A stretch of DNA of 64,000 nucleotides, from assembly GCA_040954595.2 (NCBI GenBank), contig CM082583.2, positions 2,283,209 through 2,347,208 on the forward strand, read 5' to 3'. This document shows positions 25,711-57,828 of this stretch, in pieces. Numbering within the stretch: position 1 is the first letter of the stretch; each line of letters starts with the position of its first letter. This DNA comes from Balanoglossus misakiensis. Taxonomy: Eukaryota; Animalia; Hemichordata. A program made the translations under genes and the position numbers. Under the pieces are notes generated by a model, which worked only from the letters and a program-made list of their open reading frames with translations, ran no database searches and was not told the DNA's origin.

Positions 25711-25868
25711 TGTAGTGTATCGACCTGAGGTCACATCAGGTCACCTCATTATATATGCAGAACACAATAAAGTTCTTGGGCCATGATGGCGGCCGTGTAT
25801 AGATGTTAAATCATGTGTCTGTGTTTAATCCGATTCATCTAGACTAAATATCTAGTTGGAACAGTTCA
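25711..25868 (+). repeat. 5' LTR of Mag-like Gypsy
   Basis: TGTAGT...GTTCA; TATA-like ttatatat and AATAAA; matches 30127-30284. Confidence 0.95.
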
Positions 25869-25940
25869 ATTGGCGACGAGGATAAACCGGAAAAAACTCG
25901 AGAATACCGTTAACTAGTTTGAGTTGACCTACGACGTACG

Positions 25941-29885: not shown

Positions 29886-30126
29886 ACGATCATGTGTGAT
29901 CACGTTTACTGTACTTTTGGTGTACAGACCGAACCCATGTTTGCACATTTGCATGCTTGTTTGAATTTTGCCTCGTTTGTTTGTTGAATTTCGAAAACGT
30001 TAGAAAACCGGCCACGAGATGAACACTGCATCTTAAAATTTGCATATTGTTGACTGTTAGTCTGTTAAAACGGAAAGTTTTGGAAAACTTGTTATATGAG
30101 ACTCAACATTTGGAGAAAAGGAGGGA

Positions 30127-30284
30127 TGTAGTGTATCGACCTGAGGTCACATCAGGTCACCTCATTATATATGCAGAACACAATAAAGTTCTTGGGCCAT
30201 GATGGCGGCTGTGTATAGATGTTAAATCATGTGTCTGTGTTTAATCCGATTCATCTAGACTAAATATCTAGTTGGAACAGTTCA
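30127..30284 (+). repeat. 3' LTR of Mag-like Gypsy
   Basis: Follows PPT ggagaaaaggaggga; followed by TSD GGTGG. Confidence 0.95.
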
Positions 30285-34899: not shown

Positions 34900-37800
34900 C
34901 TAAAAATCCAGTGGTTCACTTGAGAGAGATTCTTCATCTTCCAATTTAACAGGTCTGTAGGGAGGCTGCCGACTGGACTCTAATGTGACTCTCTCATACA
35001 CCTCTCCTTGTATTTCTTTGATGAGGGCTTGTATATTGGGACATGCCAGATAGAGATCATAGGCTGTTCCTTGCAGCAAAGGTTCCAGAAGTTTGTTGAT
35101 TTCATCCAACACGGGTATGGTCTGCATGAATAATAAATCATAAATGTTGGTTACTTGATTACTGTAAAACATTTTATTCTCGCGAGCAATAAATTTTCGC
35201 GAAATACGCGAGAGCCAAAGTAACGTGAAAATAAAAAGTCGCGTAATTGTTTTTTGAAGATAACGATGCAGTGAATGAAATAAGAGAACGCGAAAATTAA
35301 TACTCGCGAAACAGTGGCCTCTCTCGATATCGCGAAAATTTCAACTCACAAAAATAAAGTGTTTTACAGTATCGTTAAGTTCACCAAAACATTCCCTAAG
35401 GTAGAGTTTTTCCTGTGTACTTTCTGGGATAACAGAAACTGTTTTTTTTAGCTTTGGAGTGGAAAGAAATTTTTCATTTGTGATTGATGCAAAATAACAT
35501 GCTTGGAAGAATGGTTGGACATTCTAATACCACAGTGATGCTGTAGTTGTGTAGAGAGTTCAGTGAAACATGCCAATAATTCTTGCCCACAACATCAGTG
35601 TAATTTGTAGTACCGTAGTTGCCCGGGTAAGAACCCCTGCTCGGACAAACGCCCCCCCCCCCCTGGTTTTAGGGCCCATTTGTAGATCGAGGCCATATCC
35701 GGTCTAAAGCAACCCCCCCCCCCCCCCCCCCCGGCCGAATATCCATTAAATTCTTGGAAATTTAATAAAGTGCAATGCAAAAAAGGCGGATTTTCATCCC
35801 CCAAGTCACTAAAAGTGAAAAAAAAAATGTATGATGATTTACTTTCGCGCTGATTATCGTACCCACCGCGGCCGACTGGCCACGCTGAGTTATATATACA
35901 CGCTCTACTTGTTCTGGACCCGGACCGCCTGCACGCACTCAACTAGGTGAGTATGCGTTATGGGCATTGACTAGGGAAACCTTTCCGTGGCGTTGAAGTT
36001 GGGGAAAACGCTACATTGGCGCTGCGAGCAGGTGACCGGGCATATGGGTTGACACCAGGCATGCTTACTGGAACATCTTCAAGACAGAATGTTCATTCCG
36101 AAAATACCCTTCCAAGAGTCCATGCACCAAGACATCAGGGGGCAGACGCTATCCAACCCCGGCATTTCCCCAAAAATCTGTATTTTAATGGGGAGGGAAG
36201 TTGGAAATCCTTTGTCATGAGATTTTCCAAATATGCAACTTCCCAGGGTTGGTCAGCCGATGTACGACGTGAACAACTGTGCTGGTGTCTGGATGGAGAA
36301 GCTGGGGACTGTTACACCATCATTCTGGAGAACGAACCGAATATTCGTTACATGGATCTGTTGCTCAAACTGGAGCAACGCTTTGGTTATAAAGAACTGC
36401 CAGAGACAGCCCATTTGGATTTCCTGCAACAGAAACAGGAACCCAACGAGCCTCTGAACAAATGGGCTGATAGGATCCTAACTGTAGCTACCAACGCATA
36501 CAGCAGAGTATCCGATTCGTTTATGATGGAACAGGCTGTTTTACGTTTTTGTCAGGGGTGTATTGACAAGCACGCTGGGCAGTATGCCGCCAATAACTAC
36601 CCTCGGTCGATGGAACAGGCTATCAACCTAATAAAATGGCATCAATTCAATCGCCGAGCCATTTTTGACCGACCACCACCACCTCGGGTTCGGTATGTAA
36701 GCCAGGATTCTCCTCAGACCGGGGAGGAAGCTATTGAGGTAAAAGCCGTGTCTACCACCCCTCCAGGGACGTCAAAGCAGGCCTCCCCCATTGGTGAACT
36801 GGAGCGACGGATGTCACGAATGGAGCGCCACCTAGCGGACCTTACATCTACCTTAAATAAGATGGCTCTTCAACTTGAGGGTTTGGTTAGTGCACGATCA
36901 AGATCTCCTTCTCCCAGTAGGTCCAACTGCTACCGCTGCGGAAAACCTGGACATTTTCAACGGGACTGCACTGCCTCACCTTCACGTCGCTTCACCTCCC
37001 CAGAGCGTAGGGTATCCTTTTCGGAACCCCCAAACGGGAAGGGGTCCACCGATTAGGCCTGGAGGTGACCCCTAGATCGACAGGCCATCACCATCATAGT
37101 GATGTTATCCCTTCATCCATCCAAAAGAGCGGGGTGTTTCCTCCAGAGGTAACTCGGAAGGAGCGCCACGTTTTGAGGGTGGTAGGAGACGGTAACATTG
37201 CGTTGTCTTCCGTAGATGGGGTTAACGATTCACATGAATTGTTAACTATTTGTCAATTGCGTTCCGGTAAAATGTACCGCGTTCCACTTCGGATACAAGG
37301 ACATGATACCCAAGCGATAATTGATACCGCTTCGGAAGTAACTATCATTTCTGATAAGTTCTTTGACCAGTTAGATGTTAAACCGCCCATTATTAACCAA
37401 GTGACCTTCCAAACTGCCGGAAGGGAGCTGAAGATGAAGGGGTTTTTGGTGGGTCCGGTTGACATCCGATTGGGAAAAGGTCTATACTCGGAGCGAGTCT
37501 ATGTGGCTCCCATTGAGGACGAAATGCTCCTAGGCATCGACTTTGTTAGGTCTCATGGGATCCATCTAGATTTACTCAACAACATTCTTCGGATTGAGGA
37601 TGAAATAATACCCTTGCAGTTTGGTACAGTAATAGGGGAACCCAAGATCGCAAAAGTCGCTCTCTTGCATAGGGTAAGGATCCCACCAAATACTGTAATT
37701 AGACTGCCATGTGCTATGCGTGACTCCATGTCTGAGTATGTGGTTGAATCAACAGAAGATCTACTGGTAATGATACCACGTACACTCCATTCAGGAGGAC

Positions 37801-40800
37801 AGACACCTAAAGTTTGCATAGTCAACCCTACTGATGAGTTTGTGACCCTTCGAAGAGGCAAGGTCATCGCTCATGCGGTAGAGGTAGGGGCTGTTTCACT
37901 TCAACCTGTCGAATCCAAGGAAAGGAACGGAGAAACAGAGAAGGACGAAATCCCTGTACATCTTTATGATCTCTTGGAGAGGTCTGGCATCCATCTACAA
38001 GATGAAGAAAAAGCTCGAGTGCAAGATCTACTTATCGAGTATGAAGATGTGTTTGCCAAAACCGAATTTGATCTGGGGAACTTCACCACCATTCAACATC
38101 ATATCGACACCGGTGATTCCAAGCCAGTCAAACAGCGGATGCGCCGGACACCCATGTGTTTTGCGCAGGAAGAAGAGGCACATCTTCAAAAGATGCTAGA
38201 TGCAGGGGTTATCCAACCTTCTATTTCCGAGTGGGCTTCTGCTCCAGCACTAGTGAGAAAACGTGATGGGGGAGTTCGTTGGTGTGTCGATTATCGTGCA
38301 TTAAATGATCACACGACCAAAGATGTCTACCCTCTACCTCTGATTGAAGAATGTCTGGATACATTGGCAGGACAAACGTGGTTTTCAAAATTGGACGCAA
38401 ACTCAGCATATTGGCAGATTAGAATCAAGGAAGAAGACCAGAAGGAAACTGCCTTCACCACCAAATATGGTTTGTTTGAATTCAATAGAATGCCCTTTGG
38501 TCTCTGCAATGCTCCAGCCACATTCTCCAGAGTCATCAATCTAGTACTCAGAGGTCTTACTTGGGATATCGTGTTAGCCTTCATTGATGACATTCTCGTG
38601 CTTGGGACTTCATTCGACAACCATCTGACCTACTTGCGGAAAGTTTTTGGTCGACTGCGTCACTTCCAACTAAAACTGAAACCCAAGAAGTGCGATCTCT
38701 TTCAAAGAGAAGTCGTCTTCTTGGGGCGCATCATCAGGAACGGCAATGTGGAGTTGGATAAAAGTTCCATTCGAGCAGTCAAGGATTGGCCCGTACCTAA
38801 GAACACCAAAGATGTTGAGAAGTTTTTGGGATTGGCCAATTACCATCGAGCATTCATCAAAGATTTCGCTAATACGGCTGTTCCTCTCTATGGTGTTACC
38901 GGGAAAAAAGCTTTCATTTGGGGTCAGGAACAACAGCAGGCTTTTGACACATTGAAAGAGGCTTTGTTGTCTGCCCCTGTGCTCGCTTTGCCCAGCAACA
39001 CCGATCCTTTCATTTTAGATACAGATGCATCGGACTTCACCATTGGAGCTGAATTATTGCAATTGCAGAATGGGGAGGAGAAAGTAATTTCTTATGGAAG
39101 TTATGCCCTTACCCCTGAGCAACGACGCTATTGTACTACCAGGAAGGAGCTGCTAGCAGTGGTACGGTTTACTCGCCAGTACCGTCATTTTCTGTTGGGG
39201 AACCAATTTACTATCAGAACCGACCATAGCAGTCTTGTCTGGCTCCTACGGTTCAAGGACCCCCAAGGACAACTGGCAAGGTGGCTGGAAGAACTTAGCC
39301 AATACAACATGACCGTACAACACCGACCTGGGAAGAAGCACAGTAACGCCGATGCTTTATCACGCCAGCCCAATGGTGAAGTTTGCGGCGATTTTTCCAT
39401 CGAAGTTAGACCAGGAAATCTACCCTGTGGGGGATGTTACTACTGTACTCGTGCACATGACAATTGGGCTCGTTTTACCAGTGATGTGGATGATGTAGTA
39501 CCACTAGTCTCATTTCCTTATCAGGGCAAGGACACCGAATCGACCCTCAAGGTTGCTCAACTGCAAGTCACCAACCAGTTTTCAAAATGGCCATGGGAAT
39601 CGGATTTCATCTGCTGGGATCCTTTATCTCCTGAGGATGGTACTATTAGTGACCTGGATACTATGTACCCCTCAGTTGAGATAATTAAAACCGTATCCTC
39701 CCCAAAATGTTGGGTTGTTACACGGTTTCACCAAGACACCCAAGGCAGCACCTTTTTGGGGTATACGACCAAAGAAATCGGTCAGGCCCAGCAACAGGAT
39801 GCAGATCTGATTTTTCTGTGGTCATGGCTTACATCGAAAGTGGAACCAAGCAGTAATGAGATATTCTTGTCTTCTCCGGCAGCCAAGTATTATTGGATTA
39901 ACAGGGATATCTTCTTTATTGAAAAGGGGACCATATGGAGGGAACTGGATGACAGTGTGACCCTGGTTGTGCCCAGATCGCTGCAGTTGGAGGTCATGGA
40001 GTTAAATCACAACATTCCTGCTGCAGGACATCAGGGGATTACCAGGACTCAAGCCAAACTCAGGGAGAAATATTTCTGGTATGGTATGTCTCGAGATATC
40101 AACCGGTTTATTACTTCTTGTAGTGTCTGTGCAACTAGCAAGAAACCTGTGCGTCGATCCCGATTCCAGTTAACCAAGTTCCATGCTGGCGCCCCTATGG
40201 AGCGTGTCCATCTGGATTTCCTGGGCCCACTACCTCAAACAGCACGAGGGAATGAGTGTGTTCTTGTAATGGTTGACCAGTTCACGAAATGGGTGGAGTG
40301 CATACCACTTCCATCCCAAACCGCGGAAATAACAGCACATGCAGCCGTGGAAAACTTCTTTTCGCGATTTGGTTATCCATTTGAGATCTGCACTGACCAG
40401 GGAGCTAACTTCGAGAGTAAACTGTTCTCCGCAATTTGTGACGTGCTACACATTCACAAGACCCGGACTACACCCTACCGGCCCTCCGCAAATGGACAAG
40501 TGGAGCGGGCCAACAGAAGTATAATGGATGCAGTTCGATGTTTTGTGGACAAAACTCAGCGAAACTGGGATGTGTATCTATCACAAATTGCTGGAGCTCT
40601 CCGGTCCTGTATTAATAGACATACAGGATTCACCCCCAATAAGCTAATGCTTGGTCGTGAAGTCAATCAACCTTCCGACCTCGTATTTGGCTTATCATCA
40701 GTCAAAGGTAAGGATCCGCAGGACCATGTCTGTGAGCTTGAGTCCGCTATCAAGCTTGCGCATGAGATAGCAAGGACCAAACTTCAATCTACCCAAGAAG

Positions 40801-43800
40801 TAATGAAGAGGAATTATGATTTAAGGGTAAACCTTTATTCTTACGAGGTAGGGAATTGCGTTTACATGCTTGAATCTGCAGTAGAAAAAGGGAAAAGCCG
40901 GAAATTAAGTCATCCGTGGAAAGGACCTTGGATTATAATCAACAAGTTAACACCATACTTGTATAAGGTAAAATTCCAGCGGGCCATAGTAACTGCCCAC
41001 CATGATCGGCTTAAGCTATGTCGGAGCCGAGACCTGCCCCAATGGGTCATGAGGTATCAAGAAAATCTCAAACGGAATAGTACAGGTAAGGCAGAGATCG
41101 CCGATGTATCATCGACACTATATTGTGTTTGTCGGAAGCCCTATCGTGGTGAGTTCATGATCCAGTGTGATGCTTGCTCGGAGTGGTACCATGGACACTG
41201 CGTTGGGGTGACGACCAGGGATGCGCGGAGGATTTCTGTTTATACTTGTCCGGCATGTTCTTAATCTATTGTCTTTTTCTTCATTGTCCACAGACATGGC
41301 TTCTTCGTCTCCACCTGATTCACCCAAGCGCCAATGGAAGGAGGTCGCTCCGACTGATCCAAGTGCCGCTCGCCAGCGTCTTAGCCAGGAGATATCCGAT
41401 GCTACCACCAATGACTTCCTTTGGCAAGTTCGAGAGCTCGTCAATGGCATCGGTGTTATCTCCATGGGACCTGACCGGTCTGTGGCACAGGGCCAGGAGC
41501 TCCTGATCGGTCAATACACCATAGCGGCCCGGAGGAAGCGATGGGGATGGATCAGAGCCCTGCGCAAAGACGTCGATCTTTGCCTTGGTTTTGATCGCGC
41601 TTGGATTGATGAACATCTTCCTCATCCAAATCCAAGAGAAAACACTTGGTCTGCTCCCCAAAGGTCCAAGAAGTCGGCTTCGTATGAAGTTCCACCTGAT
41701 GGTATGTACCGGGACTTCCGTCTTCAGGACCCTGAGCAAGTGGAAAAATGGCAGCGGGAGTCTGTGCACTCAGGTATCCCAGACGTCCAACGCGCTCGGG
41801 GGCCGGGGGCGGGGGAACTGGTATGTCCACCGGTTGGATCCATACCGGAGGTGCAACCGGTGTTGGTTTCTGCCCCGGTGGAGGCAGCGCCGGGAGTACT
41901 TCCTGCGCCTATGGAAACGGCTAGCCCGCAACGAGGACCAGCGGTGAGGAAGGCTGTGGTGGCAACTGGCCGGGGTAAGAAGAAGTCCAGTAGAGGTTAG
42001 AAGGGGAAGGGGGTTCTGAATCAGCCTCCTGTTGGCTCCGCAGGGAGTCAGCGGGTGCAACGATCCAGCCCTCTTTCTCTGGTCGGACCCTTTAGTGAGG
42101 CTTTTCTCCCGGTTGGTTTAGGGCAACCCCCTCTCGTTCCTCTTCCCCCAGGCTACCTTGGAATACCGCCGGCAGATCATGTTCGTTGTCCCTTGCCAGA
42201 GTGCACGGAGGTAACTGTGGACCTCAGGGCTCATGTCTTGGGTAAGCATGTTCCTCCGGTACTCCGGGGTGATCATCCTTTCGAGGCTTGGAGAGTGTTC
42301 CATGCTTTGGGCATTCTTCATTCCTGGATTGTTGGGGGATCACCAGGTTCACCGGCCATGAGCTTGTTGGTTTATTTCGTGCGGTTTGGCCATGTCTTTC
42401 TTCCGCCGGTTTCATCGGTAGAGGAAGAGTATTTTCCTTTGATGCATCAGCTATGTAGGGATTTGGGGCTCCACCCGCCAAATTCTCCCGCTGTACTCGT
42501 TTACTGGAGAGTGCTCTTGGTTTTGTTGGGTTTTCTTTCTCCTTTGCAGAGAGCGGAGTTTGCAGGCCTCTTCAGCGGGGATCGGCAGATTCTGCAGGCC
42601 AAGAAAACCAAGCAGAGCCATCCTCTGCCCAGGAAGTCGTGCACTGTGTCCCGATCACAGGAAGCGCAAGATTTGATTGCCTCGGCAACTGCTTCTGCTT
42701 CAGGGAGCCAGAGTTTGGATGTAGGTCCTCGCCCGACTAAGTCTAAGGGTAAGGTGAAATGTGTTGGCAGTGCGGCTTCGCCACTGGGAGCCTTTGATTC
42801 GCATTTTCATTTGGATCGATTGACTTCTTCGTGGCGGGGTACTGTCACCCGCGTGACATCGGACGTAGTGGTCTCCTCCCCTTCCATGCTGAAACAAAAA
42901 ATTTTCTATTTTCGTTTCTGTTAGTAAATACTTACCTTTGATCCAACCTATAGCCTAATATATCTCGCCCTCTAACGACCGCTGAGATAAAAAACTTTCC
43001 CCTGATTACGTCATACTCACCGAGTATATATACCACCTGTCCAGCCGTGAATATTCAGTATTGCTCAGCACGAGAATAACTGCTCAGGCCGAAACTATGC
43101 TGCCCACGCACTGAGGACCCATCCAAAATTTATGAATAATGGAAAAACAGTCACAGGTCAAGTGTGGGGAGGCGGGTGGGTATCTGGTTGGATCAAAGGT
43201 AAGTATTTACTAACAGAAACGAAAATAGAAAATTTTTTGTTTCTATGGCATAAATACCATACCTTTGATCCAACCTATAGCCTACAGAGTCCCAAGGAAC
43301 AACTGGCGGTGGGACTTGAACCGAAAAAACAAAATTCCAACAGAAAGAACCAGGCTATTACTTACTGTGAGCTACCCTTTGAGCTACACAGATAGGACCC
43401 AAAGAAAATAAGCCATCTGCTTCCGCTGCCATATCTCGCAGATAAGCAGAGGAAAAAGTAGTCTGTGATCTCCACTGGACTGCAGACAATAAATCAGCCA
43501 TGGAAGTCCCTGAAAAAAGTGACCATGAAGCAGCAAGAGCTCTGACTTCATGAGCTGACACCTTAGCCCAGCTAATTGCTTCTTCTGAAGGGCTAGAATA
43601 AGCAAACTTAATAGTCTCGACGATCCATCTGGAAATAGTCGACTGTGAAATAGACATACTGGGTGTAACCCTAATGGAGATAAACAGCCTTGTCTGCTCT
43701 CCCCTCCTGTCTTTTGTTCTCTGCAAATAATACTTTAGTGCTCTGACAGGACAGAGCAACCTATCCTCTGAACGCTGACCGACTAACTTCGTCAGTTTCG

Positions 43801-46800
43801 GAATAACCAGAGGCGATTGTGGCAGATCCGCAATCCGATTCTTTGCCAAGAAAGCTGGGTCAGTAAGCAAAGTGACACTGTCTGCTGACCAACGAATATG
43901 AGCTGAAGCCATAGACAGGGCATGAAGCTCACTACGGCGACCTGCCGTAGCTAATGCCAAAAGAAAAACAGTCTTGTACGTCAAGAACTTCATCTCTGCT
44001 GTTTGCAAAGGTTCAAATGGAGCTCCTAATAAAGCATGTAGAACCAAAGATAAACTCCACTGGGGAACCAGTGACTTTACAACTGGTCGCGCCAAAGAGA
44101 AATTATTTATCAAAGCAGAAATAGACTCGTCCAGGGTAGTAACTTCCTCACCCAACAATCGAAGTGTGTTACCTATAGCTGAACGGTACGCCTTAATAGT
44201 GCTCACTGCTGTCTTTTTCTCCTTAAACAAATAGAGGAAAAAATCTGCTAGCTGAGGAGGCGTGGGTCTGAGAAAATCAATCGACCTTTTCTCACACCAA
44301 TGACGAAAGGAACACCACTTTGAATCATATGCTGCCGTGGTGGATGCTCGTCGGTGTTGTGCGATGCGCGAGGCAGCTTCTGCAGAAAAGCCTCTTGCCT
44401 GCAAACTGAGCTTGATAGTCTCCAAGCGTGGAGGTGAAGGTGTTGTGCTACCGGAGGCAGCCGAACAGTCTCCTCGATGTAATTGTGTGGTAATGTCAGT
44501 GGACAGTCCACCAGTAACTGGAGTAGTCTTGGAAACCAAGGACGTGTTGGCCACAGTGGTGCAACTAGAATTACTTCGCATTCTTCGTGTGCTACCTTGG
44601 AAATTACCCTGGAGATCAACGGTAGTGGGGGAAATGCATATGCCAACATTCCCTTCCAGCTGATTGACAGAGCGTCGCATGCTAGTGCTTGTGGTTCCGA
44701 CCTTAGTGACGCGTAAATCGGGAACTTGCGATTCTTGGCTGTCGCAAATAGGTCTACGTGGGGCCTGTCCCAAATCAGACAAATCTGCTCTACTAGCGGT
44801 TGCCGTAGAGCGCACTCTAGTGGATAGAACTTGTCCCGTGATAGAGCATCTGCCAGAATGTTGCTTGTGCCCTGAACGTGGAGTGCTTTCAGCGTGATGC
44901 TGTTCGCCTGGCACCAATTCAGCATGTCCCATACCAGATAACACAGGCTGGGTGATCTGGTGCCGCCCTGGTGATTTATAAATGCGACTACTGTGGTGTT
45001 GTCTGACCTGATCAGAATCACCTTGCCGCAAATGTCTTGGTGAAAGTGGAGAAGTGCCAACTGTACTGCCTTCATTTCCAACCAATTTATGTGCCGCACT
45101 GACTGGTCGACTGACCATATCCCTGAGATTGTCCTGTCTCCCAAGTGTGCACCCCATCCTTGGAGAGATGCGTCCACAAACAGTGACACCGTCGCCAACG
45201 GGGATACTAGGGGATTTCCCTCGAGAGTATTCCCCCTGTCTAGCCACCATTGCAGGTGTGAAACTAGAGGTGGCTTTACCTGAATAAGGTCCGTCAACTG
45301 TCCGGATACCGGCCTCCAATGGGCCAACAGAAACAGTTGAATTGGCCTCATATGTAGTCTGCCTAAAGGTATTGCCTCGGCTAGAAAGTTCATGCGACCC
45401 AGGATGCTGAGCAATGTGCGTGCTTGGACCATGGACTCTGAACTGATCCAATGCACTTGCTGTTCTAATTTCAACAGGTTTTCCTCCGTAGGGAAAACTA
45501 AACCCTTGGACAGGTCCATGACCATGCCAATGAACTGGATCCTCTGTGAGGGGATTAGACAAGACTTGTCTGTGCTCGGAATGAACCCCACACGAATGGT
45601 CTCCCGTAGTGTGGTTTGTGTGTCTGCCAGTGTCAACTGGAAACTGGAATTGTGTAGCAACCAGTCGTCCAGGTATGGATTGGCTTGTACTGCTCGGGAA
45701 TGAAGGAAAGCCATCAACGCCCCTACTACCCGTGTAAAAATAGCCGGGGCAGTGGCCAAACCGAACGGAAGAGCCACAAACTGGAACAGCTTGCTCCCTA
45801 TCGCAAAGCGAAAGTACCTCTGGAAGTGAGCATGGATAGGAATGTGGAAATAAGCATCCTGCAAGTCTATCGTCGTTGCCCAATCTCCCGAGGAGAGAGC
45901 CTGATGAATAGTTCGAGTGGTCTCCATACGGAAAGACTCGATTATAATGTACTGATTGAGCACGCTCAGGTCAAAAATGGGTCTCCATCCCTGTGACTTC
46001 TTTGGAATAAGGAAAACACGACTGAAAAAACCCGTATCCTGAACTGGTAAAGGGACCTTTTGAATGGCCCCTTTTTCCAACAGCCCCTGTATGGCCCTCC
46101 ACATAGGAGGGGAAGGGTGCGATACCAAATGACTTGGAGGATACAATGAAAGGGGTGGAGACGTCCTGAAGAACAGACGAACCCCTTCCGAAACTAAAGA
46201 GAGGACTGTTTGGTCGTCTGTAATCTTCTGCCATTCCTGGGCAAAATGTTTCAGACGACCCCCAACTGCTACTTGTGGCAATGGTGTCTGGGGCATAGTC
46301 ACAGATTGTGACCACCCTTTGTCCTGACTTGTGTAGTCACTTGTGCTGGCTGCTAGCCCCTTTGGGGGGCTTAGCCTGCTGACGAAAGGGCTGACCCTTC
46401 CTTTGCTTATTAAATGGTCTCTTCCTAGCAAACTTCCGTTTGCTGGTGACCTTTGACACAGAAACAGAAGACTGAGCTTGTGCTACTGCTAACTGTTCTA
46501 CCGCCAACTTCTGTTTAAGCAACTCCTCATTTGTTCTAAGAACAGCATCAAATTGCCCATTAAAAACCAATGGACCTGACCATGGGAGAAGACGGGCAGT
46601 ACGAGCTGCCTCCCTTTCCAAAGGAAGATGACTGATGAGATGGTCACGTGTCATCAACACTTGAGACGCTGCCATACGGGAATTCAATTCTGCTTGATAA
46701 ACCACAGTCTTAGCGGCTTCAGTTAACAACAGTCTGGCATGCTGCCAATTTTCTGCTAACTGAGGAGTAGATTCACCCTCCTGCATGGGTTTAAGCTCTC

Positions 46801-49800
46801 TGCTTAAAGCTGAGAGTAACAGAAAAGTGCAATTAGAGATCCTTGCGGAAAGACGAGTAGTTGCCTCTAAGCGGGCAAAATCCTCAGCCCTAATCACATA
46901 ATTCCTCAAAACCTCTTTATTTCTTACCAACTGCTTTGCGGATTCATCAACCGCTGGTGCAGAGTGGTAGAATGGTCCACGTGTAAGATCAAACACGCGA
47001 CTACCCTGAGGTCTAGACACCAATGGGAAACCATGACTTGGCATCCCTTGAGGGTAACAACGAGGTTTCTTGTTAGCAGTGTAACTAAAGTCCCTGGTGC
47101 CTTTAATCTCGGCATGTACCGTGTCTATCAGAGACGACAGACGAGGAATAAAAGGTAGCTTTCGGTGTACCGGATCAGCTGCCTTACCCAACACATGCTC
47201 AAAAGAAGCCGTCAGCTGTTCTGCCGACACTTCAGCAGTGGGTGGGGGACATTCCTCAGGGGGTACAGTATTATACACTAGCATAACCGCGTCAGCCCAT
47301 TGACTGGCGCGACTAGTTTCCTCTTGATCGGACAAATTGTCTTCATCCTCATCCTGCCCCTCTGACTCCGATTGTGAAACATCGAAGGAGGAAATAGGAG
47401 GGGCAGGGACAGTGTGACCACTGTGCACAGGATTTTGGCCCGACACAGAGACCCGATTAGCTTGAGCAGGCATACCCCAGCTTGTGGACTGAAGTGGTGC
47501 CGCTAAATTAGAGGGAGGACAAGTCCATGGGAAACCCCACGACTGTTGGAAGCCAGGAGGGGGAAAATTCCCACCAGCCTGAGCGACTCCCGAAGCTAAT
47601 TGGTCTGGTACACACATAGGGGGTGGGCCGTGAAGCCCTCCCCACACACTACCGGCACTACCTATGGCCGTCGAAGGCACTGGATTAGCCAAGACGGAGG
47701 TAGGAACCGTATGAAAATACCTAGAAGACATACCTGCATAATTCGGCCAAACACCTGACTGAACAGTTTGCGCCGATGAAACACCTCCCAAATGAGATGG
47801 ACCAGGAACTGCTGCATCCAAAAGGGAAGAAACCGGCAAAACAGGAGTTTCTGCAACCGTCCTAGTAGCTGATGAATCCAACTTGGATCGCTTCGAAACG
47901 AGCGAAGCCCTAGCAGAAGCATGGCCGCCATCTTGGGACGACCCCCTAGCTAACTCAGAAAAAACATCAGGCTCTTCAGAGTGCGCTGAATGGAATTCTT
48001 GACCCGGAATAGGCAGTTGAGAGTCTTCTATTTCCGAAGGAGTTCGAGAAGACGACCGCGACGCGGTGTCAGAAACTCTCTCCGTCATGGTTCCAGTGAA
48101 AACACGAAAAAATGCACGGGCAAAAATGGCTTCTGAAGGCTATATGAAAAGACAATACCGCAGAAGCCCTACACACTGACCCGTACACGTGTGGGAAAAA
48201 TCCGAAAAACAAACTTTGCAAGTGCCAAAATAACACTAGCAAGCAGTTTAGAAAATAAGTCGTTACTTATCTACTTCCCCAATCGAAAAACCTCAGGCGA
48301 AAAGCAGCAATGGTCGAAGGGCTGAGCACTTCTTGACAAAAATCCAACACCTCAAGAGAGAAGATGTCCGCTGTCTCGTGCTGAGATAATAATACTGAAT
48401 ATTCACGGCTGGACAGGTGGTATATATACTCGGTGAGTATGACGTAATCAGGGGAAAGTTTTTTATCTCAGCGGTCGTTAGAGGGCGAGATATATTAGGC
48501 TATAGGTTGGATCAAAGGTATGGTATTTATGCCATAGAAATCACTGACGGGGATTCCCGTATTGGGTGGGGTGGAGGTTTACTGTGACCCTACGACTTTT
48601 CCCACCAATCTTTCCCGGAGTAAGCGTTGGAAAATTGCTGTGGGAATACATCCCAAACAGGCGGCAACACTGACTGGAAGTCGACTGGAGAAGTTCAAGG
48701 AATTAATCCAATCCCCTCAGGTGGCAGCAATTGGGGAGGTTGGGTTAGATTTCTCTGTTGAGACAGACAAATGGCCCCTCCAGGAGACCGTGTTCAGGTT
48801 GGCCCTTTCCCAGTGTGATCCACGGAAGCTCCTGGTTCTGCACATCAGAGGAGCTGCTGGAGATGTGTGTATTGCTGCTGTCGGGCGTAGGGCTCTTGAA
48901 ATCGTTCGTGAGTACTGCGCCAGTGAGCAGTTGATCCACTTCCATGGCTTCACTGGAGATCGTTTTGTGGTCGAGTGCTGGATCAGGGATTATCCGTACT
49001 GTTACTTCAGCTTTAATGCTGGTGTTAACACTTTTTCTACCCCTCAGCTTGAAGCACTCAGGGCGGTGCCAGAGGATCGTCTTCTCTTGGAGACGGACTC
49101 CCCGTACTTCCCTGTGGCCAATGGTGCCAAGCCCAACACTCCAGCCTTTATCGGAGATGTTGCTGTCCTGGTTGCGGCGCGGCGGGGGATACCTCTGAAC
49201 CAGCTACTGGAAGCTGCTGCCAACAACACCAGGCGCTTGTACGGCTTCGACTGAACGGGTAATCTTTGGGGGGGTCCTATTGGCGTTAGACTGTGAAATC
49301 CATATTACATCCGGAGCTGCCTTCCATGGGTCTTTCACTTTTATCTGGGCCCACGCCACTGGGGATATTTTTGCTTGTTGGTTTTTGTTACTTCCGGTCC
49401 CTCCCCAGTGGCAGTAAAATTGTGTTTGCCACCATCGTGTAAGAATCGATCTCGACGGTATGGCTCTAAAAAGTCCCCAAAAGAAAAAAAAAAACGTGCC
49501 ATATCCCGGATTGATTCGAATCGGCTGTTCCGTCCATAATCATCTAACCATCTATGAAAGGAATCTCCCAGTTTCCAGAGATCCACACGGAACCCATCGC
49601 TTCAGAAGAAAACAGGGGAGAGTGTGGTATTTCTGGAGAATACCTCACCTGGAGTATACCAGTGCCTGGAGATTCCTGTGGAAATGCTGATTGGGTGGTG
49701 ACCCTTATGTGACCTGTCACGTGACCCCGTGAAGGTTATATATATCACCGTGGGACCGGAAGCCGGGGTTCTCTCTCGTCTCGTCCATGGTCTGGTGCTA

Positions 49801-52800
49801 CACGCTCTACTTGTTCTGGACCCGGACCGCCTGCACGCACTCAACTAGGTGAGTATGCGTTACGGGCATTGACTAGGGAAACCTTTCCGTGGCGTTGAAG
49901 TTGGGGAAAACGCTACAGCCGCTCTAGAAAACATGACCTCAGACAGGTCCCTCGGGACCGTGCCTCGAATTCAACGATCACGTAGATGGACGCGCTGCCG
50001 CGTGTGAGGTCACCGGGGAGCTTTCCAAAGCGGCCGCGTGGAGCTGCTTCAGTCCGTCCTGGACGCGAAACACCCAACATTGGAAGATCCCGACTTGGAC
50101 TCGGAAAATGAACCACTCAAAAATTTGCATAAAAGTCGAGGTGGTCATCCCTCATTTGCATAAATCTCGAGGCCATATCCGGGCTAAAGCCCCCCCCCCC
50201 CCCCCCCCCCCCCCACTGTTTTTTCGCTAATCTGTTGGCCCAGCACCCGGGGCTCTTACCCGGGCAACTACGGTAAATATGCCACAACACATTCTATTTC
50301 TAGTGATGCATTCCAGTACAGCTAAAGTAAAAGAAATTTGCTATTGCAACTTGATAACTTTGACCACCAACAATGGCAACTATCAACACTGATGCCTTAA
50401 TGACTTGGTGTGAATTATCTCCATTGTATAGCGTGTTGAAACGTTCCAGGTATCAACTTTCTATGGTTCTTTGACAGTTACCTTCGCACTACGTTCGCCA
50501 CAGTTGCAAATTGCGAAGAAAAGTCTGTGGTGGCAGAAAAAATAATACAATGTATTCGCAACGTGTGGCGAACGGCAATTTCTCCAGCTGATGAAGCATT
50601 TAGTTCTTTTTATTTTGATGATACGCATGACAGTAAAGACGATCACCGATTTTAATTTTGCAGTTGTAGTTTGATAAAAAAAGAACAATAAAGGTGAGCA
50701 ACTACGGTAACAAAGTGCATACAGTGTATCAAAGGTCGATGAAACCCACGTCTGAAAATGACGAGAAATCCGGGAACAGTGCGCGTTCTCCGGATCGTTC
50801 CATTACGAAGTCCGATGAAGCCATATGTGACGTGTACGCGCACATGCCCTACAAGTTATAAATACTCTTGGATTGAGATGATCGGAAGCTTATACTCATA
50901 TATTCCTTGTAGAAAATATGATTTTACATTTGATAGCCTAAAACTGGTCAAAAGGGTAAGTTACCCATTGTACAATTTCCACATTGATGTAGTTACCCTC
51001 CTGCTACTACTTTGCATAGTGTTGCTTTTGGATATCAGTAAACATGCAGGATTTACATCTATCTCTATTGCTGGGTTCACATCTAGGACCATGGCCGGGC
51101 AAAACTTATCCCAATGATTGTGACAAGATAACCTAATCTTTAGTCCCCGTTCACATTGAGTTTGGCACAGTCCTGGCCAACGTCGTCTCGCCAACCTTTG
51201 ACCTTTGAAATGTGCCATGGGTGAATACGGTCGATCAGAGAGAATGGAAAATGCTTAAAAGACAATTGATTTCTTCCGTACCCCTGTCGACTCCTCAACT
51301 CACCATTGTCAAATGATAAACTACACTGTTATGTCAACTGTAAAGGACCAGAGTCGGACAAAACTTGTCCACACACACCAGGCCGTGATGAGAATTGGCC
51401 ACAGATCACCCCTTTCGACTGGGACACAAAATTGTCCGGACAATGGCCGGCCAGACCCGTTCACACCTGTTTTTTTGCTCAGCCATGTACCTGGCCAGGA
51501 CAAGGGCCTAGCCTTTTTTGAGCAATGTGAACAGCCTCTATACTGCTTGAAATCACATAACTTTAAAATCACAAAAGAAATCTGCATCAAACAAGAGGCA
51601 TACTGCAGACTACTTACAGAATAATCCACTGAAAGGAACATCTGAAATGTTTCTTGATCTCGATCTGTCACTGATTTCAGTTTATTTTGGACGTACAGTG
51701 GAAGACTTCTTGGTGCAAAGCTGCATCCAGACTTCAAGACATTGTCAAGTTTCTCTCTGTAAGCAGTAGCCATTTTCCCAAGTACGCTGAGTTTCAATGC
51801 ACCCTAAAATATGAAATCAACAGAAACAAAATACAATAAAACAGACACATCTTGAAGATTCCATCTCAAAGCATGACCCTACAGACAGTGGTTTTTGTCT
51901 TTTTACATAATTTTTGGAAATATTTGTTCAGTATGACAAGGTTCTGAACAAGAATATACAGATACACTCTTACACATCTTAGAGACATGCATATGGCATA
52001 CATTTTTGTGATATATTTATGGAAAGCACAAGAGGGCACGGCAGACAGTTGTTCATTCAACTGCAGGAGAGCTGTAGTATGTTTATTACTTCCATACACA
52101 TGCACACTCTACAAAATCATGAATACTTAGGGGTTATTACACGAATATTGGTCGATAACGAGTCGTATTCGAGTGATGTCCGTATTTTGACGAGTTGCAA
52201 AAGAAACGAGTCAAAAGACAGACTCGCGCTATCGCCTCGTGCTATTGACCAAAATTCGTGTAATAACCCCTTTATCATACATGCCTACCTATAAAACAGT
52301 ACGATTTGCGAAAATGTGCCGAGAAAAACAATTTCACGGCTAGAAATTTGAACCGGGCGCCCTGGGATCACAGTAGCAGCCCATACCCAAGTGAGACAGG
52401 GTGATACGATCAGGTGATCAACGTGTAGGCCGTAGTATTATTCTAAGGGGGTTGGCAGCTTTCATTACGATGGGCACATCCGCATTCTAAATAAAATTGT
52501 CTACGTTTTCTTTCAAAATATCATGTGAACAATTATTTCGCATTGAGAATTCCGAAGAAGTAAAAATGATACATTCAACATGACAAAACCGCCAGCTTTG
52601 AAAACTTTATTACAGCTTCTAATAACCGAATTTTACAACACCCCTCTCCACTAGAGCCCTATGCCCCGTGTGTCGCTCGCGCGCGCAGCGAACTGTCGTG
52701 CCGATGACACTGAGTCAACGCAGTGTGATGATTTCAGCGCGTTCTCAAAAATAGTTCGAGACGCGGACGCGGTATTTCACCTAGTGAAATACTGTATAAT

Positions 52801-55800
52801 ATCTTCAGTGCGAGAACAATAGAAAGTGCCAAATACAGGCATTGCATTGTATGATAAATGCATATATTACACAGTTTCCTGTAAATCTGCTTTATTACTA
52901 TTTTTATTACAGCATTTTCCAAGTTAATGCATGGAATACACTGGTCTCATTCCAATGTAGCTTGTGTGTTATATAAGATGACGTGCCTTCATTTTGAACC
53001 ATCACACAGTTTCATCCAATATAAAGCCTGACCATGGCGTGAATCAATATATAGCTGCTGTTTCATTATTTATCTTGACAATGTGAAAAAGTACTTACTT
53101 GTTCCTCTGGAGGCAAAACTTCTGGTTGTTGTTCTGCTTTCTTTTTCTTGGGATCGACAGGGGGTGGAGGAGGAGGATTTCTTTTCAACTGTAAAGCTGC
53201 TGCCAATACACTGTCCGATTCTAAATCATAGATGATAAGGTCTTGCATGGTTTTATTCAGGCCAATGAGATACTCAATCTGGTATGCTGTACTGTGTAGC
53301 ATCCTATAGCAGTCCGGGATGTACTGGTGTTGCTGTTAGAGGTAAAGCAATACATGATAAGAAATGACTATCAAGTGCCAAGAATATGATAGACATACTG
53401 TAAAACACTTTATTTTCGCGAGTTAAAATTTTCCGCGATATCGAGAGAGGCCACTGTTTCGCGAGTATTAATTTTCGCGTTCTATTTCATTCACTGCATC
53501 GTTATCTTCAAAAGAAATTTACACGACTTCTTATTTTCACGCTATTTTGGCTCTCGCATATTTCGCAAAAATTTATTGCTCGCGAAAATAAAGTGTTTTA
53601 CAGTATTTCATCGGGGCCAAGCCATTGTCAAAAATAGTCACTGCTGGATAAGAAAACATTGGACAAATGCGTAAAAAGAAAGTGGCTCTGAAAATGTTCA
53701 TAACAAAGTATACTGGCTGGGTATTACATTGAAGCATATGATAAAACAATCACGCCAAATACTTGGCATGCACATGTACCAGTATATTCTGTAAGTGCAG
53801 TCTCTTACTTTCTCTTTTTGCCATGCTATAGAAAATCGCTGTTTCAATTACCTTGTATATCAGTGATCTAGTAAGTATCCATTTGAAAACAGTGACGTAA
53901 TCCTGATTGTCCGTGGCTTCTTGAATCTTGGATTTGATGAAGACATTGGTGGTTTTCAGATTGCTCACACTGTATGGATTGTGCCTGTCTTCTGGACCAC
54001 CTTGTTGAAAATGGAATGCGGCCTGTAATGATCATAAGATGTCAAAATTGACCCGAGTGTAGTCTAACATGTTTCTGGGGAGACTTTGAGTCAACTCTAA
54101 GTGTGTCAGTCCTGTATCTTCACACTGAACTGGAGGTGGCACTAACTGTCGTTCTTGCAAGCTCCAACAATTTTTAAGTCCCATTTAGAGTGTATATATA
54201 CCATGGGACCTTATGGAAACAGTTGCGTCTGTATGTATGGATGGATAGATGTATGTCTGTTTATCCGTTCACATCAAATACTTAAAAAAGCTGTGGAAGA
54301 TAAATATATGGGACGAAATCAGTCGATGGAACCAGATCAAATCCGAAAATGGTCTGACATCAAATGTCAAAGGGCACGTTTGCTGATCAACATGTACAAC
54401 ATTTCCGTTGTAAACAAACCCGCGCATCATTTCAAGTGTTGCGGGCAATATTTACAGCTTGCATGTAGCTACAGTTGCCCAAACCTTTCTTCTATCTTCA
54501 TTAGGTAGCATTCCATGATGAATGTACGGAAAAAACGGGCAATTTTCGATGATGAAAAATGGATAAACATGAGAAATACTGGGGCTTTAACATTTACATG
54601 ACACTCCAAAACTCAGTGATTTACAATGAAATAACCAGTATAAACAGTAGCAAAGTTGGCCATTTTCATCATGTTTATATGGTGCACTCACCTTTTCGTG
54701 ACTGAAAAATGCATTCTGATACAAATTAGCTAGGTTGTAAGGAAAGAATGTGCGGTAACTGTAACAAGAAAAAAATTCATTCTTGGATGACGTGTCAAAC
54801 ATACGGTAACACTCTTGATTAGTCAGACACATTGTAATTGTGCTCTCCCTGAGGCTTTGAAAACTCATCTCAGTATGGTTGTATCACTGCTATTACAATC
54901 TACAAAATGTCTTCTTAAAATAGGATCTTTGGCAGAAATTTTGAGACATTCCTGCAAGAATACTTCTGATTGCCATACATACACATGGCTTATAGCAGCT
55001 AAAAATCCAATTTCTTATCTAAGCTGCTTTTGGCAATTTCCATGAAATAGAAAAGACATATTTTGAATGTACATGTATATATACTTACTCATCTTCAGTG
55101 TTCTCGACATAATGCAACAAGAGATGCTTGACAATTTTGAGGTATCTCCAGCCAATAGCTCTGTACACCTAAAAATAAATACAAGCATGAAATTTGTTAT
55201 ACAGCTCTTACTGGAAAAAGTGATACAAAACACAATTGACAGGGCCACAGGTCGTTGATGTTCAAATATGCCCTATTGTCATTTGTTGGAAAATTCATCC
55301 AATCGGATGTACCCTGATAGTCAATATGAGAATATCCAATCATTAACGATTCAAATTAACATTAATTATGCAAGCCACACCCACCAAAAACAAATCAGCT
55401 CTTCCCTTTCAAAACATTTGACTCCTGATATGTCTACCAGTACCTTTAGGGGGGGGGGGGGGGTAGGGGGGTAGGGGGTGTCATCTGAAACTCTTTTCTG
55501 TTTATTAACACACCATCAGTATTGTTACCACTGTTCAGGGAGACTGTCAACCGATACTATAATTATCAAAGTCACTCGGGAATGTGAAAAAAAGTAATGA
55601 TGCATTGTTTGCCATGGTCTGCATACAGTGAAATACCCTGCAATAGCAACCATATTGTTTTCAAGGAATGACATACATTGCAGTAGCTACACTTTCTGCC
55701 TACTCTGCTTTGCTAGCAACTATGCCGTAAGACCCATACTTGAAGCCACAAATCAGTTGACCCATCTGCTCGCTGGTAAATACAACTGTCATATGTTGTA

Positions 55801-56851
55801 ACCTACCCTCAAGTAAAGTGGTTGCTTTGTTTCCACTGCCTTGGAGACTTCCAGTTCAAACGCATTTGCTTTCTTTCTTATGTCATCCAAGCTCCATCTT
55901 GCTACATCTCCAACATACAGTCCCATCACGACAACAGAGTGGTCTTGGCTCAACTTCAGCACATAATTGCGAACTGTGGTCCAAGCATTAACGTAATCAT
56001 TAGGCTGTTGTATAATATCTTTGGAAGAAATAATTCTACAAAGAAGTGGACAACCTTGCAATGCCACAGATCCTACTGAATGCCATTGAAGCACTGCCAC
56101 ATCAATTAAAGAACCATGATCGAGCAGCCAAATTTCACATATATTTTTTTCCTAAATAAAAAAAACTTCGAATCTTCTCCCTATCCTTTAAAATCCTCAG
56201 CATTAAGCCACTGTACTTGTATTTGCATCAGTTTGTCATCTCTTGGTGACATATTCAACAATAGTTTTGTACTTTTTACATGGTGGCCGAATAAGGCTTG
56301 AGTTGCAAATGCATGAGTTGCGACTGGATAATTAGAAACATTAATAAGCTTTAAAAAATGATTTTAATTCTGTGTATTAAACGTACCAGGCATTAATTTA
56401 CGTGGCACTGCTGAATATTGTTCAATGCGTCACGTTTTATTATTAGCTGCAGCAAAATTTCTCAAATTTAATTCAGCTAGTATTAAAGGTAAATCATACC
56501 AGGTTCACACAGGATAAATTTTGAGATGGTTCTAAAGCTTTTCAGATAAGATACCGTCTTAAAAAAACATGTGTGGACGGTGTATAGTGGTTCTGAAACG
56601 GCTTAGATTTGAGACGGCTTTGCCGGTCAGACCTGAGCCGGTGTACATGTAAGGTTTAACACCTCTCCGCAACCCATTGTCTATGGGGCTGAGTCTCAGC
56701 GCCTATACATAAACTTCGTGTGTGTGGACACAACGCGACTCAAAGGATTAATGCATACCGTAGTTGTCCGGGTAAGAACCCCTGCTCGGACAAACACCCC
56801 CCCCCTGGTTTTAGGGCCCATTTGTAGATCGAGGCCATATCCGGTCTAAAG

Positions 56852-56888
<37 letters not shown>

Positions 56889-57828
56889 CCGAATATCCAT
56901 TAAATTCTTGGAAATTTAATAAAGTGCAATGCAAAAAAGGCGGATTTTCATCCCCAAAGTCACTAAAAGTGAAAAAAAAAATGTATGATGATTTACTTTC
57001 GCGCTGATTATCGTACCCACCGCGGCCGACTGGCCACGCTGAGTTATATATAGCCGCTCTAGAAAACATGACCTCAGACAGGTCCCTCGGGACCGTGCCT
57101 CGAATTCAACGATCACGTAGATGGACGCGCTGCCGCGTGTGAGGTCACCGGGGAGCTTTCCAAAGCGGCCGCGTGGAGCTGCTTCAGTCCGTCCTCGACG
57201 CGAAACACCCAACATTGGAAGATCCCGACTTGGACTCGGAGAATGAACCACTCAAAAATTTGCATAAAAGTCGAGGTGGCCATCCCTCATTTGCATAAAT
57301 CTCGAGGCCATATCCGGGCTAAAGCCCCCCCCTGTTTTTTCGCTAATCTGTTGGCCCAGCACCCGGGGCTCTTACCCGGCAAACTACGGTAATAAATCTC
57401 CTATATTATTACGATTATTATTAATTTCAATAACTTACTTATGTCAAGATAGATAAGCACTGCTTCACCATGGCAACCCTGAGGTCCTTTAAAGTAACAA
57501 TGCTCATGCAATTCCAAATCATTCAGATATGGCATCATGGCACCATACATTGGGGACCAACCACTGACAGCAAATGCCATTGCAATCTGTAAGGAATAAT
57601 AATAAAATTGATTGGTTGGTTGGATGGATGGATGGATGGATGGATGTCTGGACTTGACTGAACGACCGACTGACTGGCCTTGGTGGGACTGACTGAAGGA
57701 ATGAATGATGGATGGATGGATGGATGTCTGACTGAATGAATGACCGACAGACTGGACTTGATTGGACTGGACTTGATTGGACTGACTGACTGACTGACTG
57801 ATGGAATGAATGAATGAATGAATGAATG

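What the first reader, a model, noticed from the sequence alone, without database searches (positions are those of the whole stretch)
41296..49254. LTR retrotransposon carrying a TATDN2-like TatD nuclease in the env position
Seen: between pol and the PPT/3' LTR lies a third ORF. Removing the DIRS element (42895-48540) rejoins it in frame (...SPSMLK|SLTGIPVLGGVEVYCDP...). The result is ~770 codons: an unknown N-terminal region, a C2H2-like finger, and a full TatD domain with every expected metal ligand (DSHFH, GEVGLD, LHIR, HFH, ETDSP). Known: TatD proteins are metal-dependent 3'-5' exonucleases/AP endonucleases. The (Y/F)CDP, HxHxFTG and NTxRLY motifs resemble the metazoan TATDN2 subfamily, which has been linked to RNA/R-loop degradation. 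Inference: this lineage captured a host nuclease and may use it for cDNA or RNA:DNA hybrid processing, repair at integration, or evading nucleic-acid sensing. I do not know TatD as a described Ty3/Gypsy accessory gene, but could not check the literature.
Basis: partly seen in the sequence, partly recalled or inferred. Interest (0 to 1): 0.9.

Follow-up and report, generated by a model that had tools for sequence, protein, structure and literature searches.

The report
Gypsy retrotransposons carrying a TatD nuclease
A widespread family of jumping genes in marine invertebrates carries, where a retrovirus keeps its envelope gene, a conserved gene for a TatD-type nuclease that likely removes RNA from RNA:DNA hybrids for the element; the copy in this window is broken.

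Summary
Real. A young Ty3/Gypsy element (gag, pol ending in a PHD finger, PPT, 3' LTR) holds a third ORF with a TatD domain (Pfam E 8.6e-38), split by a DIRS element. Contigs of public runs lack both the DIRS and the stop, and one runs from integrase into TatD. The layout is a lineage trait: sea-urchin and brachiopod gene models join a close pol to the same ORF3; zebra mussel, hard clam and scallop hold dispersed near-identical copies, often named host 'TATDN2'. 77 of 81 long relatives share an unnamed zinc-finger/helical domain; 68 of 77 keep all six metal ligands. A likely splice acceptor precedes the start codon. Function is untested; best guess, a nuclear TATDN2-like RNase for R-loops or hybrids. 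No description found in 9 literature searches naming TatD or TATDN2; Repbase, Dfam and GyDB not searchable. Closest precedent: rotifer DEDDy ORF3 (PMC5408684). This scan noted the same layout earlier in a sea urchin (e1-7881919).

The parts
35611..35898 (.). Left half of a small terminal-inverted-repeat element (MITE) into which the retrotransposon inserted
   Evidence: Matches the uninterrupted copy at 56756-57392
35897..36015 (+). 5' LTR remnant (last 119 nt only; promoter part lost); holds a consensus splice donor at 35947
   Evidence: 118 of 119 identical to 49799-49917; donor 8 of 9 consensus positions, tied top among 492 GT sites
36017..36032 (+). Primer-binding site, directly behind the LTR; tRNA type recalled as Ser, not tested
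   Evidence: Sequence begins TGG one base after the LTR's CA end
35971..37056 (+). gag, 5' part missing in this copy; PNMA-type capsid and CCHC knuckle
   Evidence: Pfam PNMA E 5.8e-07, zf-CCHC E 5.1e-07; run contig has 1661 further nt before 36026
37011..41264 (+). pol: protease, RT, RNase H, integrase, C-terminal PHD finger (41124-41258)
   Evidence: Pfam hits in that order
41270..41293 (+). Likely splice acceptor (pyrimidine tract and CAG) two bases before the ORF3 start codon
   Evidence: Rank 2 of 518 AG sites; gene models of two other species join to the first Met of ORF3; no RNA test
41296..42000 (+). ORF3, N-terminal part: conserved unnamed N domain (about first 130 aa), low-complexity linker; ends in a copy-specific in-frame stop at 41998-42000
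   Evidence: N domain in 24 of 81 long relatives; stop, absent from run contigs
42001..42894 (+). ORF3, middle part: C2H2-like finger (42187-42249), unnamed helical domain (to about 42576), linker, and the HxH motif of TatD (42796-42810)
   Evidence: Invariant C, C, H, H and D-x-H-x-H columns; domain in 77 of 81 long relatives; model pLDDT about 60-90 over residues 51-190
42891..48540 (-). DIRS-type tyrosine-recombinase retrotransposon inserted inside the TatD domain; three open ORFs, inverted terminal repeats, internal complementary region 43186-43284
   Evidence: skipped by contigs of three runs
48541..49254 (+). ORF3, C-terminal part: rest of the TatD nuclease barrel with E66, H101, H135, E184, D186
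   Evidence: Pfam E 8.6e-38; model pLDDT 90.4; top Foldseek hits all TatD
49604..49622 (+). Polypurine tract
   Evidence: Purine run abutting the TG of the 3' LTR
49623..49917 (+). 3' LTR, TG...CA, 295 nt, TATA-like box at 49737
49918..50276 (.). Right half of the MITE
   Evidence: Matches 57049-57392

Best explanation
This is a decayed young copy of a Ty3/Gypsy lineage of marine invertebrates whose third gene encodes a zinc-finger/helical domain joined to a class II (HxH) TatD nuclease, likely made from its own spliced message and likely acting in the nucleus as a TATDN2-like 3' RNase on RNA held in R-loops or other hybrids of the element. Shown: position inside the LTR unit, linkage to the same pol type in three other lineages, multi-copy dispersal, conserved metal ligands and fold. 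Inferred: splicing from the LTR donor to the acceptor at the start codon; nuclear location; the upstream domains as the substrate-binding module; RNA-in-hybrid as substrate; benefit to the element (clearing R-loops at its transcribed copies or RNA left on cDNA and integration intermediates in germ cells). Odds: anatomy and lineage trait about 0.95; active nuclease in intact copies about 0.85; separate spliced message about 0.7; RNA-in-hybrid substrate about 0.45.
For: Element anatomy. Uninterrupted family form: joint 42890 to 48537 in runs X1, X2, X4 (two samples), and a 2263-nt X1 contig from the integrase end into TatD; X1 depth 217-297 on the element against 36-46 on six flank contigs (rough, not a copy number). 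Other species: P0355 (sea-urchin cluster) has gag-PR-RT-RH-IN, start of PHD, then ORF3 from its first Met, middle domain and TatD, pol 56% identical to the window; P0360 (Lingula cluster) has integrase (68%), N domain, middle domain, TatD; a PHD-ending pol (51%) shares a 90% cluster with a 777-aa ORF3. Dispersal: 15 of 15 listed members of one cluster are Dreissena polymorpha proteins on 9 chromosomes-sized contigs, 8 full-length and 7 truncated; 10 pairs among 5 of them are 96-99% identical. Selection: 178 clusters at 50% identity score E up to 1e-30, about 40% identical to the window, yet 68 of 77 keep all six ligands and 77 of 77 the E of the ETD motif. Substrate analogy: groups with animal TATDN2-like proteins against bacteria, 100/99; human TATDN2 degrades the RNA of R-loops and needs its N-terminal region to bind them (PMC10711561). 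Basic clusters in 18 of 52 long relatives against 6.0 in shuffles; no transmembrane-grade segment in 0 of 52.
Against: No expression or splice evidence: the one RNA run laid had 0 reads and is no test. Two integrase donors (40708, 41086) score as well as the LTR donor and would join pol to ORF3 in frame; an ATG at 49787 in the LTR could give an out-of-frame upstream ORF. The cross-species links are gene predictions and a cluster co-membership, not DNA I could read. Human TATDN2 had minimal activity on plain RNA:DNA duplexes, which speaks against an RNase H helper role; other TatDs are ssDNA exonucleases and AP endonucleases (PMC10085689), and the element proteins are a long way from host TATDN2-like ones. 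The window's two N-terminal pieces did not meet my basic-cluster rule, and its helical domain has one window at hydropathy 2.03. No dN/dS was computed.
Confidence: 0.5

Rival explanations
1. Counter-defence: the nuclease would destroy nucleic acid that alerts the host (nascent RNA used by piRNA-guided silencing, small-RNA precursors, or stray cDNA and hybrids seen by cGAS/STING-like sensors) instead of serving replication chemistry.
For: Separate accessory gene in the env slot, not part of the polyprotein; sequence-divergent zinc-finger/helical module that could give family specificity; a joint at depth 41 suggests a copy that lost gag-pol but kept ORF3. TATDN2 is germ-cell expressed (PMC12709183). 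The sensor and piRNA analogy is from my own knowledge.
Against: No direct evidence; the same anatomy fits the best explanation. The gag-pol-less joint has only 30 letters on one side.
Confidence: 0.2
2. DNA-end or repair enzyme: it would work like TATDN1/3 or bacterial YcfH (ssDNA 3' exonuclease, AP endonuclease) on cDNA ends or integration gaps, possibly carried as an in-frame integrase-ORF3 splice fusion that replaces the PHD finger.
For: These activities are the conserved TatD default (PMC10085689); best solved relatives are YcfH-type; integrase donors at 40708 and 41086 are in the right phase for a fusion.
Against: The two fused gene models use different donors (inside PHD, inside the integrase core) but the same acceptor at ORF3's own Met, as expected if the donor is a predictor's guess; ORF3 has its own start in a good context; nearest animal relatives are TATDN2-like, and human TATDN2 has little DNase activity.
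Confidence: 0.2
3. Direction reversed or repeated exchange: animal TATDN2-type host genes would derive from, or have swapped domains with, this retrotransposon gene.
For: A protein with the element's middle domain (P0378, cluster with truncated members) groups with tick-type host-like genes at 98/91, so domain-bearing TatDs fall on both sides.
Against: One clade of all domain-bearing rows is not rejected (AU p 0.07); P0378 has no shown link to pol; the TATDN2 clade is reported across most organisms and prokaryotes (PMC10085689); no vertebrate TATDN2 in the tree.
Confidence: 0.07
4. Passenger: a host TatD transduced into this one family, without function.
For: This copy is broken in four places.
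Against: Family contigs are open; same position in sea urchin and brachiopod elements; ligands kept at about 40% identity.
Confidence: 0.03

Closest known systems
Juno and Vesta LTR retrotransposons of bdelloid rotifers with a DEDDy 3'-5' exonuclease ORF3 (PMC5408684)
   Same: An enzymatic, nuclease-type ORF3 in the env position with intact catalytic residues and no shown function; the paper says ORF3s are typically expressed from spliced messages.
   Different: Unrelated nuclease fold (TatD barrel against DEDD); added zinc-finger/helical and N domains; spread over bivalves, gastropods, brachiopods, echinoderms and hemichordates instead of one class; pol ends in a PHD finger.
Human and fish TATDN2 (PMC10711561, PMC12709183)
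   Same: Class II HxH TatD at the C-terminus of a 700-900 aa protein with a long upstream region; same metal ligands; grouped with animal TATDN2-like proteins against bacteria.
   Different: Single host gene against multi-copy element gene; the tick-type host-like proteins lack the middle domain; only about 30% identity; orthology to vertebrate TATDN2 not tested.
env-bearing errantiviruses and other metazoan Ty3/gypsy elements (PMC13524379)
   Same: Third ORF between integrase and PPT, likely spliced from the leader.
   Different: No envelope features; 0 of 52 long relatives have a transmembrane-grade segment; the paper's main text has no TatD, DNase, nuclease or PHD.
Bacterial YcfH/TatD and phage-defence QatD
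   Same: Fold and ligands.
   Different: Far below the curated cut-offs (113 against 206 bits for TIGR00010; 75 against 230 for QatD); separate clade.

Membership tests
Ty3/Gypsy LTR retrotransposon | pol order PR-RT-RH-IN after gag | tested here: met
   Pfam order
Ty3/Gypsy LTR retrotransposon | Direct LTRs (TG...CA), primer site, polypurine tract | tested here: met
   3' LTR whole, 5' LTR truncated to 119 nt, PBS and PPT present
Ty3/Gypsy LTR retrotransposon | Target-site duplication | tested here: inconclusive
   None visible; the left junction lost the LTR start, so a duplication would have gone with it
Ty3/Gypsy LTR retrotransposon | Named clade by RT phylogeny | not testable with these tools
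   No reference clade set; pol is 51-56% identical to the other TatD-linked pols, which are 32-35% identical to the neighbouring TatD-less Gypsy pol
TatD nuclease, class II (HxH) | TatD domain above Pfam cut-off and TatD fold | tested here: met
   130.6 bits against 27; pLDDT 90.4, Foldseek E 5.6e-13 to S. aureus YcfH
TatD nuclease, class II (HxH) | HxH motif plus E, H, H, D metal ligands | tested here: met
   Present in the window's two pieces; all six in 68 of 77 relatives; class definition from PMC10085689
TatD nuclease, class II (HxH) | Metal-dependent nuclease activity | not testable with these tools
   Needs a bench assay
TATDN2 clade | Groups with verified TATDN2 orthologues to the exclusion of TATDN1/3 | tested here: inconclusive
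   Groups with tick-type host-like proteins against bacteria, but no vertebrate TATDN1/2/3 was in the tree and the host-like label is my reading
TATDN2 clade | R-loop RNase activity | not testable with these tools
   Shown only for the human enzyme
Retroviral-type env | Membrane anchor and env homology | tested here: not met
   No env Pfam hit; 0 of 52 long relatives above hydropathy 1.9; the window's one 2.03 window lies in a predicted helix of the helical domain
Rotifer DEDDy ORF3 | DEDD exonuclease domain | tested here: not met
   The nuclease is a TatD barrel
DIRS retrotransposon (the insert) | RT and tyrosine recombinase ORFs, inverted terminal repeats, internal complementary region | tested here: met
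   RVT_1 E 1.4e-19; integrase SAM domain E 8e-4, catalytic domain weak at E 0.027; 130-nt perfect inverted repeat and internal matches to both ends

The most novel reading that the evidence does not exclude
An old Gypsy lineage, present on both sides of the protostome-deuterostome split, encodes its own targeted R-loop eraser: a zinc-finger-guided TATDN2-like RNase that strips nascent RNA from the element's own copies and so blunts RNA-guided silencing in the germ line, paired with a PHD-bearing integrase; hundreds of 'TATDN2' genes in invertebrate annotations are in fact these elements.
Probability: 0.2. Interest if true: 0.88.

Novelty: new variant of a known kind. Interest (0 to 1): 0.68.

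Why it matters
It adds a new class of accessory enzyme to LTR retrotransposons and, unlike the rotifer case, one that is old, widespread and conserved, so the open question of what non-env ORF3s do becomes testable with a protein whose host counterpart has defined biochemistry. It links retroelement replication to R-loop metabolism in germ cells. It defines two unnamed protein domains. In practice it shows that many 'putative deoxyribonuclease TATDN2' genes in mollusc and other invertebrate annotations (8 of 10 members of one Mercenaria cluster), and some TatD genes in symbiont metagenome bins, are probably retrotransposon genes.

Tried and rejected
No whole genome is held for this window, so sister copies were seen only through run contigs. 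Viral-contig scans with the TatD alignment, a long relative and pol gave only weak 26-33% TatD hits or nothing; the single metagenome scan was swamped by 29-36% hits, read as bacterial TatD from their identity and not examined further. A homologue search with the middle piece found nothing; the domain was recovered through TatD hits. No RNA holder was listed and RNA run X7 had 0 reads: no evidence either way. The middle domain has no Pfam or NCBIfam hit, no Foldseek match at E up to 0.001 (a C2H2 finger aligns over 29 columns at E 3.8), best Z 3.9 and no Atlas hit: this does not show a new fold. None of the first 172 relatives was fused to pol; the fusions appeared among cluster members. Look-ups of earlier findings by sequence and place were empty. 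The search was too loose to be of use. Rejected: TatD belonging to the DIRS (it is split by it); TatD outside the LTRs; an intact 770-codon ORF in this copy; env. dN/dS was not computed, for want of relatives' DNA. No complex prediction was sent.
Full report
What is in the window. Between two halves of a small inverted-repeat element (empty copy at 56756-57392) lies a Ty3/Gypsy retrotransposon: a 119-nt 5' LTR remnant (35897-36015, 118 of 119 identical to the end of the 3' LTR), a primer site, gag with PNMA and CCHC hits, and a 1417-aa pol with protease, RT, RNase H, integrase and a final PHD finger. Thirty-one bases after pol a third frame starts at ATG 41296. A complete DIRS element (minus strand, 42891-48540) interrupts it; the frame resumes at 48541 and ends at 49254, followed by a polypurine tract (49604-49622) and a 295-nt 3' LTR. 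The last piece scores E 8.6e-38 on TatD_DNase, folds at pLDDT 90.4 and matches only TatD structures at the top. The HxH motif lies just before the DIRS, so the insert cut the nuclease itself.

The two halves are in one frame, but this copy has an in-frame stop at 41998-42000. Contigs of public runs show that the family is open there, lacks the DIRS (joint 42890 to 48537 in 3 of the 3 contig runs laid, two samples), has two short in-frame stretches that this copy lost, and has 1661 more bases before 36026. One 2263-nt contig of run X1 goes from the end of integrase through ORF3 into TatD; two more cover the rest of TatD and the way into the 3' LTR; none spans the whole element. X1 depth is 217-297 on the element against 36-46 on six flank contigs, which suggests a handful of copies, though the tool warns that depth is no copy number. 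So this is a dead copy of a young, small family. The host is not known; the closest named TatD is from the hemichordate Ptychodera flava (62% over about 150 aa).

It is a lineage trait. The TatD piece finds 178 clusters (50% identity level) at E up to 1e-30, mostly about 40% identical. Of 163 family proteins examined, 81 have 220 or more residues before the match; 77 of these carry the window's C2H2-like finger plus helical domain and 24 its N domain, while 0 of 9 bacterial TatD fusions carry the middle domain (profiles were grown from the window's pieces on this same set). Named members come from Haliotis, Ruditapes, Dreissena, Pecten, Argopecten, Mya, Mercenaria, Pinctada, Lingula, Lytechinus, Strongylocentrotus and Ptychodera. 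Three links to pol were found. P0355, an unnamed gene model clustered with the S. purpuratus protein, reads gag, PR, RT, RH, IN, the start of a PHD, then ORF3 from its first Met, the middle domain and part of TatD, then host exons; its pol is 56% identical to the window's. P0360, clustered with the Lingula protein, reads integrase core (68%), then ORF3 from its first Met to the end of TatD. A 182-member cluster mixes a 777-aa ORF3 (7 of 15 listed) with pieces of a PHD-ending pol (8 of 15 listed, 51% to the window); no bridging member was among those listed, so that link is indirect. These are predictions, not DNA that I read. Dispersal fits a mobile gene: 15 of 15 listed members of one cluster are Dreissena proteins on 9 different large contigs, 8 full-length and 7 truncated, 96-99% identical in the 10 pairs tested; 10 of 10 members of another are Mercenaria, 8 of them named 'putative deoxyribonuclease TATDN2'.

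Selection. No dN/dS was possible. At about 40% identity, 68 of 77 relatives keep all six metal ligands, 77 of 77 the glutamate of the ETD motif, and 65, 66 and 75 of 77 the C, D and P of the CDP motif. That pattern needs long purifying selection on an active site.

Origin. In a 70-row tree (30 family rows drawn at random; 6 rows dropped for lacking the motif pair; LG+G4; bootstrap not fully settled) the window and all pol-linked proteins form one clade of 45 at 99/95, and all animal rows stand apart from 13 bacterial rows at 100/99. Four host-like proteins without the middle domain, one clustering with a Dermacentor gene, group at 98/91 with P0015/P0378, which has the middle domain. A single clade of all domain-bearing rows is not rejected (AU p 0.07). 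I call the host-like rows TATDN2-like from recalled motifs; no vertebrate TATDN1/2/3 was available. Capture from a TATDN2-type gene is the simplest reading, but its direction is not shown.

Expression. A pyrimidine tract and CAG end two bases before the ATG (rank 2 of 518 AG sites); a donor in the LTR ties for first among 492 GT sites with its 3' LTR twin and two integrase sites. Both foreign gene models join exactly to ORF3's first Met from different donors, which points to a conserved acceptor and an env-like subgenomic message. Against: the integrase donors are in phase for a pol-ORF3 fusion, an LTR ATG could open an out-of-frame upstream ORF, and there is no RNA test. I saw these sites before reading scan note e1-9984778, which reaches the same view for a sea-urchin element.

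Mechanism. The protein is not an envelope (0 of 52 long relatives with a transmembrane-grade segment) and basic clusters are enriched (18 of 52 against 6.0 shuffled; the window's own pieces did not pass). Human TATDN2 degrades the RNA of R-loops, barely touches plain hybrids or DNA, and needs its upstream region to bind (PMC10711561); fish tatdn2 protects germ cells from R-loop damage (PMC12709183). I therefore favour a nuclear RNase that clears RNA from R-loops or related hybrids of the element, aimed by the zinc-finger/helical module (0.5 overall). Rivals: counter-defence (0.2), DNA-end or abasic-site processing, perhaps as an integrase fusion (0.2), reversed origin (0.07), passenger (0.03). 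All functional steps are inferred.

What is known. Searches naming TatD or TATDN2 with gypsy, LTR retrotransposon, retrotransposon stems, transposable element and related terms and one on PHD, integrase and additional ORFs listed no paper whose title or abstract describes a TatD-carrying retrotransposon; I judged most from listings only. Read: PMC5408684 (first part of the text and passages), PMC10085689 (passages), PMC10711561 (abstract and one results section), PMC12709183 (passages), PMC6962438 (one passage); term look-ups in PMC13524379, PMC6238403 and PMC12440569 found no TatD or DNase and no PHD. No supplements were opened, and Repbase, Dfam, GyDB and subscription journals are outside the library, so an earlier record may exist. 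The precedent is the DEDDy exonuclease ORF3 of rotifer Juno and Vesta elements. This scan noted the same layout in a sea urchin (e1-7881919) and a degenerate J-domain/TatD form in a flatworm (e1-8580967); these are unchecked notes and are not counted as support.

Verdict. The feature is real, conserved and apparently undescribed in the searched literature: a new variant of a known kind (an enzymatic ORF3), interest 0.68.

Noticed in passing
window 41124-41258: The integrase ends in a PHD finger (Pfam E 1.4e-09), as do the related pols P0289 and P0355; it may read histone marks for target choice, as chromodomains do in chromoviruses (inference).
   Followed up: partly
window 36032 to 40881: Run X1 has a joint skipping gag-pol at depth 41, and ORF3 depth (273) exceeds gag-pol depth (217): possibly a non-autonomous copy that keeps only the nuclease gene. 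One side has only 30 letters.
   Followed up: partly
window 42891-48540: Young, complete DIRS element with three open ORFs and 100% identical inverted repeats; X1 depth about 900 against about 40 on flanks; a loose end at 48541 shows another insertion site.
   Followed up: partly
window 25711-30289: A second, distant Gypsy element (about 160-nt LTRs, 98-99% identical, gag-pol with one break near 29250) with no third ORF of this kind.
   Followed up: partly
window 767-24361: Satellite array, 126-nt unit, about 187 copies, 97% matches.
   Followed up: no
window 56756-57392, 35160-35372, 53393-53606, 58820-59036: Two MITE families with terminal inverted repeats; the first is the empty form of the element the retrotransposon entered.
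   Followed up: partly
window 30268-31052 (minus strand): Decayed fragment of a further retroelement protease region.
   Followed up: no
proteins P0179, P0180, P0062: Family members labelled as Candidatus Thiodiazotropha and Sedimenticola metagenome bins fall inside the animal clade (for P0179 and P0062); likely host DNA in symbiont bins.
   Followed up: partly
PMC6962438, figure legend: A 'TATDN2' ORF is drawn inside the giant squid Hox cluster next to a pogo-derived gene; it may be a remnant of such an element.
   Followed up: no
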